From: Planctopirus limnophila DSM 3776
GTDB taxonomy: Bacteria; Planctomycetota; Planctomycetia; Planctomycetales; Planctomycetaceae
Reading direction: 5' to 3'
DNA length: 32,000 nucleotides
Assembly: GCF_000092105.1 (NCBI RefSeq)
Contig: NC_014148.1
Location: 4,530,001 to 4,562,000 of the forward strand
Position numbers and translations under genes: made by a program. Below, piece by piece: positions 7,354 through 22,129 of the stretch. Under the pieces are notes generated by a model, which searched no databases, was not told the DNA's origin, and was given only the letters and a program-made list of their open reading frames with translations. The first letter of the stretch is position 1, and each line of letters begins with the position of its first letter.

Positions 7354-7375
7354 ACACCTCCCTTACAAATGAAAA

Positions 7376-7403
7376 CAGCCCCCGGTCTTGCGATCGGGGG
7401 CTG
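7376..7403. terminator. Bidirectional intrinsic-terminator-like hairpin between convergent genes
   Basis: Perfect 9-bp GC-rich stem cagcccccg (7376-7384) / cgggggctg (7395-7403) with a 10-nt loop. T-containing tail on the + strand (ctgttcgtt) and T-rich tail on the - strand (tttcatttg). It sits between the stop at 7244 (+) and the stop at 7468 (-). Confidence 0.65.
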
Positions 7404-7467
7404 CTGTTCGTTGTAACACCGTCAGAAGTCTATTGCCGTTATCGATTCACTGTTCAGCCGACACAAA

Positions 7468-18877: not shown

Positions 18878-18982
18878 CACTCGCCCGACATTTCCGCCAG
18901 TCATCCCAGAAGAAAACTTGACATGACCGATTCTTTGAATCGATTCACCAATCGAGTCGAAAACTACCGTAAGTATCGACCC
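18878..18982 (+). repeat. Left copy of a perfect 105-bp direct repeat
   Basis: Base-for-base identical to 19779-19883 (offset 901). Contains 45 nt of leader plus the first 20 codons (MTDSLNRFTNRVENYRKYRP) of the methyltransferase. Confidence 0.95.
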
Positions 18983-19159
18983 TGCTTAAAGTCGGCGAAC
19001 GATGAATCGACGAGCTGCATGCAATGGATTTTTCCGAGCAAGAAATTTGCAGCTCACTCATGCGGCATAACTCAACACATCCCACTGAACCTGTTGACAT
19101 TGACTGCCAAAGTCCGCCTTGTATTCTCGTCGCAAGTTTTCGGAACAATCACACGTTAG
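18923..19159 (+). pseudogene. Chimeric remnant: 20 duplicated methyltransferase codons fused to 58 insert-derived codons
   Basis: ATG at 18923 reads MTDSLNRFTNRVENYRKYRP, then diverges exactly at the repeat boundary (18983) into CLKSANDESTS...GTITR*. Confidence 0.6.
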
Positions 19160-19178
19160 GTGAATACACCTTATTGAC

Positions 19179-19706
19179 ATGATCGCGGTACAGACAATCT
19201 CAACGTCGTGGACAAAATCGTCGCGTGGCGGTTCACTTGCCATGCTGAGAAATTGCGTACCCAAACGCCTTCCATTAAGTGTGCCAGATGACTTTAGAAA
19301 CGTTGTTTGGCACTCGGTTGCATACTCTGAATGCAACAGATTCGCTGTTCCGACAAGCGTACGCGTTACAGGACACTGCGAAGACAATCGTTTTGGATGC
19401 AAAAACGCAGAGGTTGAACGACACGATGATTATGCAATCCTGATTTACCGATATCAGACAGGGGCACCAGCACGCCAGTTCTTTGATCAATCAGGAACTC
19501 CCGTCGCACCCGAGCACTCGATTAAGATTCCATGGAACCGTTGGGCTTCAGTGGAATACAATGGCCGCTTTCCTTGTATCGACACAGGTAACTGGTGGTA
19601 CGAACGAGTGGTTATCAATGTTGCTTGTGGTGACTCCATTCCCTTCAACTGCTTCACGGGTTCTGAACCTATTGAAAACTATACTCAACTTGCAATTCTT
19701 CGTTGA
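19179..19706 (+). CDS. Orphan hypothetical protein carried by the 796-bp insertion
   Basis: Longest ORF in the insertion (175 aa; alternative start M22 at 19242). Trp/Cys-containing, no family recognised. AT-richer than its surroundings. Confidence 0.4.
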   Translation: MIAVQTISTSWTKSSRGGSLAMLRNCVPKRLPLSVPDDFRNVVWHSVAYSECNRFAVPTSVRVTGHCEDNRFGCKNAEVERHDDYAILIYRYQTGAPARQFFDQSGTPVAPEHSIKIPWNRWASVEYNGRFPCIDTGNWWYERVVINVACGDSIPFNCFTGSEPIENYTQLAILR

Positions 19707-19778
19707 GAACGAGACACACCCACAAACGATACGATGAATCCAGTTAGCAGAATCGTCGTTAATTTTAATGATATCGAT

Positions 19779-19883
19779 CACTCGCCCGACATTTCCGCCA
19801 GTCATCCCAGAAGAAAACTTGACATGACCGATTCTTTGAATCGATTCACCAATCGAGTCGAAAACTACCGTAAGTATCGACCC
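19779..19883 (+). repeat. Right copy of the perfect 105-bp direct repeat
   Basis: Identical to 18878-18982. Here it continues in frame into the intact methyltransferase. Confidence 0.95.
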
Positions 19884-20597
19884 GGGTATCCGCCAGAGGT
19901 GCTATCGGTCCTGCAGCGGGTGACGGGGTTCAACACGCAGTGGGTGGTGGCGGATCTCGGTGCGGGAACGGGGATTTCGTCGCAGCTTTTTCTGGAGCAT
20001 GGGAACGAGGTTTATGCTGTCGAACCGAATCGATCGATGCGTCAGGCCGCCAGGGAGCTTTTCGGTGACCAGGCGCGCCTCCACATCGTCGAAGGAACTG
20101 CGGAAGCGACCACTTTGCCAGATGCTGCCATCGATCTGGTCGTCGCTGCGCAGGCTTTTCACTGGTTCAACATACCGGCCACTCGCCTGGAGGTTCGAAG
20201 AATTCTCAAACCGCAAGGCTGGGTGGCGCTCATTTGGAATCATCGACAAACGCAGGGCTCAAAGTTTCTCGAAGAGTACGAACAACTACTCTGTACCTAC
20301 GGCCGGGATTACGCCGCCATCCGGGATTCTCATCGGGACCAGCGGCGTCTCGAAGAGTTCTTTGGCAATGGACAAAGCGGCAGCAACGGCGGCTACCAAA
20401 CCTTCGAAGTCGCCCACGAAAAGTGGCTCACCTATGAAGATTTGCGAGGGCTGCTGATGTCGGCCTCGTATGTGCCCCTCGAAGCCCAGCCGGGACATGC
20501 CAATATGCTTCTTGACTTACGTTCCATTTTTGCCCGCCATGCCAAAGATGGCGAGGTGCTGATGAAGTACCAGACAGAACTCTTTGTGGGGCGATGA
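19824..20597 (+). CDS. Class I SAM-dependent methyltransferase
   Basis: ATG at 19824 (MTDSLNRF...), 257 aa. Motif I VADLGAGTGISS, AVEPN, and post-II AAQAFHWF. GC-rich like the core genome (39 of 60 GC in the spot check 20041-20100). Confidence 0.9.
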   Translation: MTDSLNRFTNRVENYRKYRPGYPPEVLSVLQRVTGFNTQWVVADLGAGTGISSQLFLEHGNEVYAVEPNRSMRQAARELFGDQARLHIVEGTAEATTLPDAAIDLVVAAQAFHWFNIPATRLEVRRILKPQGWVALIWNHRQTQGSKFLEEYEQLLCTYGRDYAAIRDSHRDQRRLEEFFGNGQSGSNGGYQTFEVAHEKWLTYEDLRGLLMSASYVPLEAQPGHANMLLDLRSIFARHAKDGEVLMKYQTELFVGR

Positions 20598-20650
20598 AAT
20601 AAGTTGTATGGGCAACTTGGGATGGCAAGGCCTTCTGTGACCAAAACAAC

Positions 20651-20672
20651 TCAAGACTGAATTGATATTGTG
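20651..20672 (+). repeat. Left copy of an imperfect direct repeat bounding the Abi module
   Basis: tcaagacTGaattgatattGtg here versus tcaagacaattgatattAtg at 22041-22060. An upstream ccaaaac.aac is also shared (20641-20650 versus 22018-22028). Confidence 0.45.
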
Positions 20673-20699
20673 CACAGAAAAGTATCTGGTAAAATTGAC

Positions 20700-20880
20700 A
20701 ATTGCGCACCAAAATCGCTTAGGTTAGAAGCGTAACCAGATAAGTCACTTTTCCAAACATCCGGTACATCTTCGACGTATACTCTAGACAACGCTTCAAG
20801 AAACCGATAATCTACTATACAGCATACCCTCCGGGCCTCTGCGGCAACGCATGCACACTTCGGAGGGTCTTTTCGTTTTC
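20700..20880 (+). ncRNA. Candidate structured non-coding RNA immediately upstream of the abi gene (boundaries approximate)
   Basis: No ORF here. Extended -10-like TGgTAAAAT at 20687-20695 and TTGACA at 20695-20700. Hairpin cgctt/aagcg at 20716-20732. A GNRA-capped helix tgcg-gcaa-cgca at 20840-20851 is nested inside an 8-bp helix accctccg/cggagggt (20826-20833 / 20861-20868), followed by cttttcgtttt. Confidence 0.4.
20826..20879 (+). terminator. Intrinsic-terminator-like hairpin plus T-tract, 48 nt upstream of the abi ATG
   Basis: Stem accctccg (20826-20833) / cggagggt (20861-20868) with a structured 27-nt loop, followed by the T-tract cttttcgtttt (20869-20879). Confidence 0.55.
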
Positions 20881-20927
20881 AGATGTAATTTTTTACATTG
20901 AATCCTCTCCATTCATCGGGCCTGACA

Positions 20928-21860
20928 ATGGAGTACGAGAAAAAATTTCTCACCTTCTCAGAGCAAGCCGATCTTCTGATTCAACGGGGTTTGAAAGCAG
21001 ATCGTGAAATTCTCATTCAGCATCTTCAGTCAGTAAGTTATTACCGAATAAGTGCTTACGTTCGACCATTTCGTCAGAAAAGCTCCCCGAACGACCCCAT
21101 CCGTGAAGACCTGGTACCCGGAACCACTTTCGATGACATCTGGTCGAGATATGTTTTCGACCGCAGGTTACGACTCCTAGTTATGGATGCGATCGAACGC
21201 ATTGAAGTCGATATTCGGACAAACCTGACATACCTGCATGCTGAAAAGCACGGCCCATTTGGCTACGCAGATGACACTGGTACGCTGCCTAATGTGCAAA
21301 GTGAGGAAGATCGCGAAAGGCTGCTCGAAGCACTGAAAGAGCCGTTGGCCAAAAGCAAGCCTCACGAAGATTTTGTCAAACACTTTAAGACAAAGTACGG
21401 CTCACATCATCGATCACTTCCCATTTGGGCCGCATGCGAAGTTATGACTTTTGGCCACCTGCTGACTTTCTACAGAGCTAGCCACCGGGACATCCAAAAG
21501 ATCGTCGCCAGGCGATACAAGCTTTCTGATATCGTTTTTGAGTCATGGCTTGTGACGCTGAATATGGTTCGCAATGTCTGTGCACACCACGGTCGTCTTT
21601 GGAATCGTGAATTGGGCGTCAAACCCATGGTTCCCAATAAGGATCATCAATGGAGACATGGAGTTGGTGCCAGTGCGCAACCACTACCGGACAATCGTGT
21701 GTTTATAGTACTCACCATGCTTAAGTTCTGCTTGAATCTGATCTCACCCGACAGTCAATGGGGGCAGGGTCTCAAGGGGTTGCTGAACGAGTTCCCCAAG
21801 ATTCCATTACGTTCCATGGGCTTCATCGACCAATGGGAATCTCACGTCCTTTGGAAATAG
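20928..21860 (+). CDS. Abi_2-family (AbiD/AbiF-like) HEPN abortive-infection protein
   Basis: MEYEKKFLTFSEQADLLIQRGL..., YYRISAY, YVFDRRLR, and LPIWAACEVMTFG. HEPN-type R-x4-6-H motifs RTNLTYLH (21216-21239) and RNVCAHHGRLWNR (21570 onward). The ORF track starts at the TTG at 20898; the ATG at 20928 fits family N-termini better. AT-rich (22 of 60 GC in 21001-21060). Confidence 0.88.
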   Translation: MEYEKKFLTFSEQADLLIQRGLKADREILIQHLQSVSYYRISAYVRPFRQKSSPNDPIREDLVPGTTFDDIWSRYVFDRRLRLLVMDAIERIEVDIRTNLTYLHAEKHGPFGYADDTGTLPNVQSEEDRERLLEALKEPLAKSKPHEDFVKHFKTKYGSHHRSLPIWAACEVMTFGHLLTFYRASHRDIQKIVARRYKLSDIVFESWLVTLNMVRNVCAHHGRLWNRELGVKPMVPNKDHQWRHGVGASAQPLPDNRVFIVLTMLKFCLNLISPDSQWGQGLKGLLNEFPKIPLRSMGFIDQWESHVLWK

Positions 21861-22040
21861 TACGTCGATGATCGACGATAACTGGATGATTTCTATCGAC
21901 TGCATTTTCAGAATCGATTGTGTGGCCGTTATCGTTCAATTCTATTTTCCAAGCGATTGGTAAACATCTTCCCACCGCTATGAATCTTTTGGCACAAGAA
22001 AAATCTCCATCTTCTTCCCAAAACGAACACCCACGTAAAG

Positions 22041-22060
22041 TCAAGACAATTGATATTATG
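22041..22060 (+). repeat. Right copy of the imperfect direct repeat bounding the Abi module
   Basis: tcaagacaattgatattatg. See 20651-20672. Confidence 0.45.
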
Positions 22061-22129
22061 TCCCTACCTGCCTGCCGAATGGTTGACACCTGGCGCGCTT
22101 TCGCCCCATGATTTCCTCATCAGGTTTCG

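What the first reader, a model, noticed from the sequence alone, without database searches (positions are those of the whole stretch)
20662..21860. AbiD/AbiF-type HEPN gene preceded by a terminator-capped structured non-coding segment: candidate RNA-antitoxin/toxin defence module
Seen in the sequence:
- The CDS at 20928-21860 has the Abi_2 layout and two HEPN-type R-x4-6-H motifs (RTNLTYLH, RNVCAHH).
- The roughly 230 nt before it have no credible ORF.
- That stretch contains promoter-like hexamers: an extended -10 TGgTAAAAT at 20687-20695 and TTGACA at 20695-20700.
- Two related 20-mers lie 33 nt apart: ttgatattgtgcacagaaaa at 20662-20681 and ttgacaattgcgcaccaaaa at 20695-20714.
- There is a small hairpin at 20716-20732.
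- An 8-bp helix (20826-20833 / 20861-20868) encloses a GNRA-capped helix and is followed by a T-tract ending 48 nt before the ATG.

A terminator placed directly in front of a toxin-like gene, inside an AT-rich insert, is what an independent small RNA gene would look like.

Established knowledge, from my recollection and needing verification: AbiF-family proteins were recently reported to be stably associated with a conserved upstream ncRNA that acts as an RNA antitoxin, and to be evolutionary relatives of Cas13. Such a module in a planctomycete-like genome would be outside the usual Firmicutes/Proteobacteria context.
Basis: partly seen in the sequence, partly recalled or inferred. Interest (0 to 1): 0.8.

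Follow-up and report, generated by a model that had tools for sequence, protein, structure and literature searches.

The report
AbiF toxin with RNA-antitoxin hairpin
This is an ordinary though previously unflagged copy of a known phage-defence module, in which an AbiF-type RNA-cutting toxin gene sits just behind the short hairpin RNA that keeps it in check; it entered this Planctopirus genome as a 1.4-kb cassette.

Summary
The gene at 20928-21860 is a full-length AbiD/AbiF (Abi_2) HEPN protein. It is homologous end to end to the solved PbAbiF-ncRNA complex (8VZ6) and keeps the catalytic RNxxxH motif.

- A covariance model built only from relatives hits 20821-20876 at 62 bits. It is the only strong hit in the 32 kb.
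- The same element lies directly upstream of the abi gene in 79 of 80 homologous loci from many phyla.
- It shows about 96% pairing and compensatory changes in 11-12 of 14 pairs.
- A conserved sigma-70 promoter (TTGACA-17-TATAAT) ends 6 nt before the RNA. A U-tract always follows it.

The RNA is therefore about 55-60 nt, starting near 20821. Those hexamers, the two 20-mers and the small hairpin are unconserved or at chance level.

A 94%-identical relative lacks the whole module. In the window it is flanked by 13-nt direct repeats.

Verdict: a new member of a known kind (AbiF/AbiFr type-III-like toxin-antitoxin).

The parts
20660..20672 (+). Left direct repeat AATTGATATTGTG at the left edge of the inserted cassette.
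   Evidence: It pairs 12/13 with 22048-22060. The relative L083 has a single site, ATTGATCTTATG, and no abi module.
20673..20784 (+). Cassette leader of unknown role.
   Evidence: Homologous loci show no conservation upstream of the -35 box. The 20-mer similarity is at chance level. No promoter is called here.
20785..20813 (+). Predicted sigma-70-type promoter of the RNA: -35 TAGACA (20785-20790), 17-nt spacer, -10 TAATCT (20808-20813). An alternative -10 is GATAAT (20806-20811) with a 15-nt spacer. The predicted transcription start is near 20820-20821.
   Evidence: It occupies the position homologous to the TTGaca-17-TATAaT-6-cAGCA consensus of 76 distinct loci. The window's -10 is weak (3/6) and the generic scan does not call it. 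The assignment is inferred, not shown.
20821..20879 (+). abiF-family RNA (candidate antitoxin).
- 5' AGCAU: 20821-25
- P1: 20826-33 / 20861-68
- P2: 20834-36 / 20853-55 (G.A, G-C, C-G)
- Loop CUCU: 20837-40
- P3: 20841-43 / 20848-50, with GCAA loop 20844-47
- AU: 20851-52
- 3' bulge CACUU: 20856-60
- U-tract CUUUUCGUUUU: 20869-79
   Evidence: Model R2, built without the window, scores 62.1 bits (E 2.7e-16) and this is the only strong hit in 32 kb. R1 scores 66 bits. Rfam RF03085 scores 15.6 bits, below its gathering score of 37. Covariation is shown.
20880..20927 (+). Spacer and 5' UTR of the read-through mRNA. It contains an AT hairpin ATGTAA-TTTT-TTACAT (20883-20898). CUCCAUU (20907-13) can pair with AAUGGAG (20927-33) across the start codon. 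The Shine-Dalgarno-like GGG (20918-20) is weak.
   Evidence: Fold of 20821-20940. This is a single-sequence prediction only. The spacer from the end of the model match (20876) to the ATG is 51 nt, against a median of 18.5 nt in relatives.
20928..21860 (+). abi CDS, 310 aa, AbiD/AbiF (Abi_2) HEPN RNase toxin.
   Evidence: Pfam Abi_2 1.1e-53. PADLOC AbiD 3.3e-68. PDB 8VZ6 'Abi family protein' E 1.1e-44 over residues 5-310. 100% identical to Planctopirus limnophila DSM 3776 Abi family protein.
21570..21587 (+). Catalytic HEPN motif R215-N-V-C-A-H220.
   Evidence: It aligns to PbAbiF R210...H215. The R210A+H215A variant of PbAbiF is inactive, and R202/H207 of the C. difficile protein are needed for toxicity (PMC12373285). 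R215, N216 and H220 are invariant in 57 homologues.
21861..22047 (+). 3' non-coding part of the cassette. A palindrome CGTCGATGATCGACG (21863-21877) lies right after the stop codon, and no U-tract terminator follows on the + strand.
   Evidence: The segment is absent from relative L083.
22048..22060 (+). Right direct repeat AATTGATATTATG. Homology with the relative lacking the cassette resumes at 22037.

Best explanation
The region is a self-contained AbiF/AbiFr-type RNA-antitoxin/protein-toxin module. It was acquired as a ~1.39-kb cassette.

Proposed mechanism:
1. A promoter at ~20785-20813 starts transcription near 20821.
2. The first ~48 nt fold into the abiF-motif hairpin (P1-P2-P3, with a 5-nt 3' bulge).
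3. The GC-rich P1 abuts a U-tract, so most transcripts should stop at ~20875-20879. This would give an abundant ~55-60-nt RNA.
4. A minority read through and become the abi mRNA.
5. The AbiF protein, a HEPN RNase that acts as a homodimer, binds one hairpin per monomer, and the RNA blocks the RNxxxH active site.
6. When the labile RNA is no longer replenished, or a phage trigger intervenes, the free RNase arrests growth (abortive infection).

Shown here: protein family and catalytic motif; RNA motif homology and covariation; conserved promoter and U-tract in relatives; insertion status.

Inferred by homology or analogy: RNA-protein binding, toxicity, termination and read-through, and the defence role.
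For: Protein:
- Abi_2/AbiD assignment.
- Full-length match to PbAbiF 8VZ6, with R215/H220 aligned to the catalytic R210/H215 (PMC12373285).
- 30% identity over 95% of its length to phiC2 AbiF, which the paper reports as 99.9% identical to the tested C. difficile toxin.

RNA:
- A covariance model built only from other loci hits 20821-20876 at 62.1 bits, E 2.7e-16. The next hit in the 32 kb scores 15.6 bits.
- The same model family finds a + strand copy directly upstream of abi in 79/80 loci. Nothing else in 484 kb exceeds 21 bits.
- Pairing is 96.4% against 33-41% for slid controls. Compensatory changes occur in 11/14 pairs, and 0/500 shuffles reach the observed values.
- Fixed windows chosen without using complementarity give the same result, 95.9% against 32-42%.
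- Family members pass Rfam's RF03085 gathering score: L062 57.4 bits, L025 41.4 bits. The window gives a sub-threshold RF03085 hit on exactly this helix.

Transcription signals:
- Consensus TTGaca-17-TATAaT-6-AGCA in 76 loci.
- 7.3 of the 10 nt after P1 are T in 74 loci, against a background of 0.24.
- The median spacer to the start codon is 18.5 nt, which leaves no room for a separate abi promoter.

Precedent:
- RCd22/AbiFCd shows a promoter, motif, terminator and read-through, and the RNA neutralises the toxin in cis and in trans (PMC12373285).
- For PbAbiF, the RNA bulge blocks the RNase (PMC12737573; PMC13064643).

Cassette:
- It is absent from a 94%-identical relative and is flanked by 13-nt direct repeats.
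Against: - There are no expression data, so the transcription start, termination and RNA abundance are all predicted.
- The window's -10 box is weak (TAATCT, 3/6), and the generic promoter scan does not call the promoter.
- The Rfam model scores the window's hairpin at only 15.6 bits, against a gathering score of 37.
- P2 has a G.A mismatch, although 7 other loci share it.
- The motif is single-copy, whereas RCd22 has two copies and classic type III antitoxins are tandem repeats.
- The primary PbAbiF paper (Cell 2025) could not be read, so RNA-contact residues and the inhibitory nucleotides could not be mapped onto this RNA.
- No other defence genes lie nearby.
Confidence: 0.8

Rival explanations
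1. Cis-only leader. The hairpin plus U-tract would be a transcriptional attenuator that limits abi expression, with no role as a trans-acting, protein-binding antitoxin.
For: The element always sits in the same transcription unit directly before the CDS, and a U-tract always follows it. RCd22 does lower abiF expression through premature termination (PMC12373285).
Against: A terminator does not need invariant unpaired nucleotides (GCCUCU) or a conserved bulge, yet these are the most conserved positions. In both studied homologues the RNA binds the protein and neutralises it in trans.
Confidence: 0.08
2. A 150-200-nt independent sRNA would start at the promoter-like hexamers near 20687-20700, contain the 20-mers and the small hairpin, and end at a generic terminator at 20879.
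For: The hexamers exist. An extended -10, TGgTAAAAT, could fire on its own. No terminator separates 20700 from 20826, so a 5'-extended isoform cannot be excluded.
Against: Conservation across 76 loci begins at the -35 box, 35 nt before the RNA; upstream information content is about 0. The 20-mers are at chance level. The -10-like element precedes the -35-like element, and the scan calls no promoter. The 'terminator' is the family's conserved motif.
Confidence: 0.07
3. The hairpin merely terminates read-through from the upstream methyltransferase gene.
For: No other terminator-like site lies between the stop codon at 20597 and 20826, so methyltransferase transcripts probably do end here today.
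Against: The hairpin is inside the inserted cassette, which the 94%-identical relative lacks. It is conserved upstream of abi genes whatever the upstream neighbour, in 79/80 loci. It has its own conserved promoter.
Confidence: 0.02
4. Decaying relic. The module would no longer be functional, with a weak promoter, a divergent RNA and an inactive or unexpressed toxin.
For: The -10 is weak. The RF03085 score is low. P2 has a G.A mismatch. The spacer of 51 nt from the end of the model match to the ATG is longer than usual. The module is solitary, with no defence neighbours.
Against: The ORF is intact and full length, and it shares every column that is invariant across the 57 aligned homologues, including the catalytic R215/N216/H220. 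All 8 P1 pairs and all P3 pairs are intact, including the compensated U-A pair at 20830/20864. The clade-specific model scores 62-66 bits, in the middle of the family's range.
Confidence: 0.07

Closest known systems
PbAbiF-AbiFr (Prevotellaceae AbiF with its ncRNA; PDB 8VZ6; Zilberzwige-Tal et al., Cell 2025, as described in PMC12737573 and PMC13064643)
   Same: The proteins are homologous over their full length (E 1.1e-44, residues 5-310 to 9-300) and the RNxxxH catalytic residues align. Both have a short hairpin ncRNA with a single-stranded bulge encoded directly upstream.
   Different: Sequence identity is only moderate. The window's RNA has an extra GNRA-capped helix (P3) where the Rfam consensus has an 11-nt loop. 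Binding and inhibition are untested here, and the inhibitory nucleotides (C32, U38 in PbAbiFr) could not be mapped.
C. difficile AbiFCd-RCd22 (PMC12373285)
   Same: The layout is the same: promoter, abiF-motif RNA, Rho-independent terminator, then abi CDS expressed by read-through. The toxin carries an RNxCAH motif. The proteins are homologous (30% identity over 95%).
   Different: RCd22 has two abiF motifs plus a separate terminator hairpin and is about 100-130 nt. Here there is one motif whose own P1 stem abuts the U-tract, giving about 55-60 nt. RCd22 lies in a prophage lysis module, whereas this is a chromosomal cassette.
Rfam RF03085 abiF RNA motif
   Same: The consensus is the same: CCCGCC-AAGCCUCU-loop-GCUCAAAUC-GGCGGG-U. 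Members of the clade model pass the gathering score (57.4 and 41.4 bits).
   Different: The window's copy scores 15.6 bits, below the gathering score of 37. None of the 20 closest loci was reported at gathering threshold. The causes are the P3 insertion, GG in place of AA, and CACUU in place of CAAAU.
ToxIN/AbiQ-type type III toxin-antitoxin systems
   Same: The antitoxin is an RNA encoded upstream of an endoribonuclease toxin. A terminator between the two sets the RNA-to-mRNA ratio (PMC12373285).
   Different: The toxin fold is unrelated (HEPN versus ToxN). There is no tandem repeat array in the window. No evidence exists for toxin-mediated processing of the RNA.
Cas13 / type VI CRISPR effectors
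   Same: Both are HEPN RNases held by a hairpin RNA. The literature proposes AbiF as the ancestor of Cas13 (PMC12737573).
   Different: Here there is one HEPN domain per polypeptide, no CRISPR array, no spacer and no cas genes. It is not a member.
Lactococcus AbiD1
   Same: It belongs to the same AbiD/F group and needs its native upstream sequence (PMC13064643).
   Different: AbiD1 is controlled by phage-protein activation of translation. Here a start-codon-burying helix is only a single-sequence prediction.

Membership tests
AbiD/AbiF (Abi_2) HEPN toxins | Abi_2 domain across the protein | tested here: met
   Pfam PF07751 1.1e-53, profile positions 2-184 of 184. PADLOC AbiD 3.3e-68.
AbiD/AbiF (Abi_2) HEPN toxins | HEPN catalytic motif R-phi-x-x-x-H | tested here: met
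   R215-N-V-C-A-H220 aligns to PbAbiF R210/H215. It is invariant in 57 homologues.
AbiD/AbiF (Abi_2) HEPN toxins | Homology to a structurally solved AbiF | tested here: met
   8VZ6 chain A, E 1.1e-44, 156 bits, full length.
AbiD/AbiF (Abi_2) HEPN toxins | Toxicity or RNase activity, and phage defence | not testable with these tools
   Needs expression and phage challenge experiments.
abiF RNA motif (Rfam RF03085) | Scores at or above Rfam's gathering score (37 bits) | tested here: not met
   15.6 bits, E 4.7, at 20827-20868. No hit in the 2-kb scan.
abiF RNA motif (Rfam RF03085) | Homology to bona fide members through a family model, on the correct strand and in the correct position upstream of abi | tested here: met
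   R2, built from 81 matches in 79 other loci, scores 62.1 bits at 20821-20876 (+). Members L062 and L025 pass RF03085's gathering score.
abiF RNA motif (Rfam RF03085) | P1/P2 helices supported by covariation; conserved GCCUCU and a 3' bulge | tested here: met
   96.4% paired, 11/14 pairs compensatory, 0/500 shuffles. The alignment made without using complementarity gives 95.9%. GCCUCU is invariant.
Type III toxin-antitoxin (ToxIN-like definition) | Antitoxin RNA encoded as tandem direct repeats | tested here: not met
   The window has a single copy; the full-model scan of 32 kb finds no second copy. Only L024 has 3 tandem units.
Type III toxin-antitoxin (ToxIN-like definition) | Terminator between the antitoxin RNA and the toxin gene | tested here: met
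   At the sequence level only. P1 is followed by CUUUUCGUUUU, and the U-tract is conserved in 74 loci. Actual termination was not measured.
Type III toxin-antitoxin (ToxIN-like definition) | RNA binds and neutralises the toxin protein | not testable with these tools
   Shown only for homologues (PMC12373285; PMC12737573).
Type VI CRISPR-Cas13 | Two HEPN domains in one protein plus a CRISPR array | tested here: not met
No repeats were found near the gene.

The most novel reading that the evidence does not exclude
In this clade the protein-binding stem of the antitoxin RNA (P1) is also the terminator stem, with the promoter only 6 nt upstream. AbiF binding to the nascent hairpin could therefore set the termination/read-through ratio. 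The toxin would then autoregulate its own synthesis through its antitoxin, as a protein-dependent attenuator. The start-codon-burying helix at 20907-13/20927-33 could add a second, translational gate like that of AbiD1. Nothing in the papers I could read describes a fused antitoxin/terminator hairpin.
Probability: 0.2. Interest if true: 0.5.

Novelty: new member of a known kind. Interest (0 to 1): 0.3.

Why it matters
- It places an AbiF/AbiFr RNA-antitoxin module in a cultured planctomycete, Planctopirus limnophila DSM 3776.
- Planctomycetota, Verrucomicrobiota, Lentisphaerota and Kiritimatiellota supply many of this module's closest relatives, alongside spirochaetes, Coriobacteriia, Acidobacteriota and others.
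- Rfam's abiF threshold misses the window's copy, and none of the 20 closest loci was reported in a gathering-threshold scan of whole loci. Routine annotation will therefore call such genes lone 'Abi family proteins' and overlook the RNA partner.
- The compact layout of promoter, hairpin, U-tract and CDS, together with the clean empty-site comparison, makes this a tidy minimal cassette for testing how AbiF modules are regulated and how they move.
- It does not change the current understanding of the family.

Tried and rejected
- A Rfam scan of 2 kb at E <= 10 found no abiF hit. The weak RF03085 hit appeared only in the 343-nt scan with laxer filters.
- Rfam at gathering threshold on the 20 closest loci found only tRNAs. 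I first read this as 'this clade has no abiF motif'. The direct pattern search and covariance models overturned that reading.
- I looked for a second or tandem motif copy in the window and found none.
- I looked for small ORFs or a protein antitoxin in 20598-20927 and found none credible.
- I looked for neighbouring defence genes and found none.
- NCBIfam has no model matching the protein.
- The inverted repeat 20768-79/21861-72 (11/12) is about what chance gives in 1.6 kb, by my own estimate of about 3 expected, so I did not interpret it.
- The primary Cell 2025 paper is not held. Weinberg 2017 does not mention abiF in its main text.
- I did not run structure prediction, because the sequence match to 8VZ6 is already full length.
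Full report
SOURCE AND OBSERVATION

The window's Abi protein is 100% identical to 'Abi family protein [Planctopirus limnophila DSM 3776]' on a 5.42-Mb contig. The next-closest homologues are only about 55% identical.

THE PROTEIN

- The CDS 20928-21860 (310 aa) matches Pfam Abi_2 across the whole profile (E 1.1e-53) and PADLOC AbiD (3.3e-68).
- It aligns over residues 5-310 with the one solved relative, PDB 8VZ6 'Abi family protein' (PbAbiF), at E 1.1e-44.
- R215-N-V-C-A-H220 (nt 21570-21587) aligns to PbAbiF R210/H215. The R210A+H215A variant is inactive, and the equivalent R202/H207 are required for toxicity in the C. difficile protein (PMC12373285).
H104 aligns to glycine in PbAbiF. R97 is invariant and H104 nearly invariant within the close clade.
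- AbiF carries one HEPN domain per chain and forms the active site by homodimerisation (PMC12737573). The claim of two HEPN motifs is therefore only half right.
- The protein also matches C. difficile phage phiC2 AbiF (30% identity over 95%). The paper reports that protein as 99.9% identical to the tested toxin AbiFCd.

THE RNA

A 2-kb Rfam scan found nothing relevant. It scored 15.6 bits against a gathering score of 37, and shared GCCUCU and UCGG with the consensus.

I fetched 80 homologous loci (33-53% protein identity). They come from Planctomycetota, Verrucomicrobiota, Lentisphaerota, Kiritimatiellota, Spirochaetota, Coriobacteriia, Acidobacteriota, Bacteroidota, Proteobacteria and other groups. 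Rfam at gathering threshold reported no abiF hit in the first 20. However, GCC[TC]CT lies 40-120 nt upstream of the start codon in about 62 of the 80. It is embedded in a shared pattern:

AGCAnACCCGCCnnGCCUCU-[variable, often GNRA/UUCG-capped hairpin]-AUGCnCAnnUn-GGCGGGU-UUUU

Evidence that this is one covarying structure:
- A MAFFT alignment of 54 distinct segments including the window (A2) supports P1 (8 bp), P2 (3 bp) and P3 (3 bp).
- On that alignment 96.4% of cells are paired, against 33-41% when partners are slid by 1-3 columns. Compensatory changes occur in 11 of 14 pairs, and 0 of 500 shuffles reach any observed measure.
- RNAalifold predicts essentially the same fold independently.
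- I had chosen the segment ends using complementarity. I therefore repeated the test with fixed windows anchored only on GCCYCT. The result was 95.9% paired against 32-42%.
- The window itself carries a compensated pair: U20830-A20864 where most loci have G-C.

Evidence from covariance models:
- Model R1 finds one strong hit in the 32-kb window, 20821-20876 (+), at 66 bits. The next best scores 16.9 bits (filters off).
- R1 finds a + strand hit directly upstream of the abi CDS in 79 of 80 loci, including about 25 loci not used to build it. Nothing else in 484 kb exceeds 21 bits. The one locus without a hit, L048, has a truncated protein match.
- Model R2, built only from the other loci, still scores the window at 62.1 bits, E 2.7e-16.
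- Two family members pass Rfam's own threshold for RF03085: L062 at 57.4 bits and L025 at 41.4 bits.

The family is therefore the Rfam abiF motif, and the window holds a divergent copy. Its differences are a P3 helix with a GCAA loop replacing part of the 11-nt terminal loop, GG in place of AA before GCC, a G.A at the first P2 pair (shared by 7 other loci), and a CACUU bulge. On its own the window RNA folds into this structure (-21.2 kcal/mol, z -2.8).

TRANSCRIPTION SIGNALS

- I anchored 76 distinct loci on the start of the model match. The upstream sequence gives TTGaca, 17 nt, TATAaT, 6 nt, then cAGCA. Information content upstream of the -35 box is about zero.
- This places the transcription start at the A of AGCA, 5 nt before P1.
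- In the window the homologous positions read TAGACA (20785-90), 17 nt, TAATCT (20808-13). An alternative -10 is GATAAT (20806-11) with a 15-nt spacer. The predicted start is about 20820-21. The -10 is weak and the generic scan does not call the promoter, so this step is inferred.
- After P1, 7.3 of the next 10 nt are T in 74 loci (minimum 5), against a background T fraction of 0.24. The window has 7.
- The spacer from the end of the motif match to the start codon has a median of 18.5 nt, which is too short for a separate promoter. In the window it is 51 nt.
- The conserved layout is thus promoter, hairpin plus U-tract, ribosome-binding site, abi. This implies an abundant short RNA and an abi mRNA made by read-through.
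- That is the logic shown experimentally for RCd22/AbiFCd: promoter, motifs, Rho-independent terminator, rare read-through, and neutralisation in cis and in trans (PMC12373285). It is also the logic of type III toxin-antitoxin systems in general.

- The RNA is about 55-60 nt starting near 20821. It is not a 150-200-nt transcript from 20687-20700.
- The 'terminator' is the antitoxin motif itself.
- The two 20-mers are at chance level: score 11 against 10.2 +/- 1.5 in dinucleotide shuffles, with 36 of 100 reaching it.
- The two hexamers are in the wrong order to form one promoter, and the scan does not call them.
- The hairpin 20716-32 has no support.

THE INSERT

- A Logan contig, L083, is 94% identical to the flanks. 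In it the methyltransferase gene and the 446-aa DUF3472/DUF5077 gene lie 134 nt apart with no abi gene between them.
- blastn aligns L083 up to window 20597 and again from window 22037. Window 20598-22036 has no counterpart.
- A 13-nt direct repeat, AATTGATATTGTG (20660-72) and AATTGATATTATG (22048-60), brackets 1,388 bp. L083 has a single ATTGATCTTATG at that place.
- GC drops to 0.44-0.48 across the insert.
- No mobility gene and no other defence gene is nearby.
- The module is therefore a recently gained, self-contained cassette. The hairpin cannot be an ancestral terminator of the methyltransferase gene, although methyltransferase transcripts probably end there now.

COMPARISON WITH KNOWN SYSTEMS, AND NOVELTY

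It works like, and is a member of, the AbiF/AbiFr (AbiD/F group) RNA-antitoxin systems. These were characterised in 2025 for a Prevotellaceae AbiF and for C. difficile AbiFCd-RCd22 (PMC12737573, PMC13064643, PMC12373285).

Differences from those two systems:
- The window has one motif copy rather than two.
- The motif has a P3 extension.
- The motif's own P1 serves as the terminator-like stem.

It does not meet the tandem-repeat criterion of classic ToxIN-type type III systems, and it is not a Cas13 system. A planctomycete host is not exceptional, because PVC-group bacteria supply many of the closest relatives. I rate it a new member of a known kind, with interest about 0.3.

The most novel reading still open is AbiF-dependent attenuation at the fused antitoxin/terminator hairpin, possibly with a translational gate at the buried AUG. 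I give it a probability of about 0.2.

LIMITS

- No expression or biochemical data were available.
- The primary PbAbiF paper could not be read, so the inhibitory nucleotides were not mapped.
- E-values from my models are rough because calibration was shortened.

Noticed in passing
window 18878-19883: There is a second indel relative to the 94%-identical contig L083. About 0.8 kb (18983-19778) is absent from L083. It holds a 175-aa ORF (19179-19706) with no Pfam, NCBIfam or PADLOC hit. It is flanked by a ~105-nt duplication of the methyltransferase 5' end (18878-18982 resembles 19779-19883).
   Followed up: partly
L024 48-304 (Kiritimatiellae MAG SKVN01000030.1): Three tandem units of promoter-like sequence, abiF motif and U-tract lie at 48-106, 147-205 and 246-304, with a 99-nt period, before the abi CDS at 322. 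Their P1 and P3 sequences differ. This was the only array among the 80 loci. It recalls the 'proto-array' idea for the origin of Cas13.
   Followed up: partly
window 20907-20933: In the read-through RNA, CUCCAUU (20907-13) can pair with AAUGGAG (20927-33), which would bury the abi start codon. This is a single-sequence prediction. Relatives mostly have spacers too short for an equivalent helix.
   Followed up: no
window 20660-20700 and 22048-22088: At the left junction of the insert, AATTGATATTGTG and TTGACA are 35 nt apart. At the right junction, AATTGATATTATG and the TTGACA -35 of the DUF3472 gene promoter (22083) are also 35 nt apart. The 22 nt in between are unrelated. This remains unexplained.
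   Followed up: partly
L001-L020 versus L025 and L062: In a whole-locus scan at gathering threshold, Rfam reported no abiF hit in any of the 20 closest loci. Yet the clade model scores all 20 at 55-76 bits. Scans of short stretches gave L025 41.4 bits and L062 57.4 bits for RF03085, above its gathering score of 37. The window itself reached only 15.6 bits. L025 and L062 were not in the whole-locus scan, so it is untested whether scan size or motif divergence causes the misses.
   Followed up: partly
window 7369-7407 (-): This is the second-best hit of the abiF-clade model (15.6-16.9 bits). It matches only the GC-rich stem plus U-tract and looks like an ordinary intrinsic terminator, not an abiF motif.
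   Followed up: no
alignment A2 columns 13-14 and 43-50 (window 20833-34 and 20855-61): The dinucleotide after the first seven P1 pairs (GG, AA, GC, CG...) falls into classes that go with distinct bulge sequences. Examples are GG with CACUUC or CUAUCUCUC, AA with CAAAU/CAAUU, and GC with GAAAUYC. Part of this is the extra P1 pair and the first P2 pair covarying. The rest might reflect cognate RNA-protein specificity.
   Followed up: no
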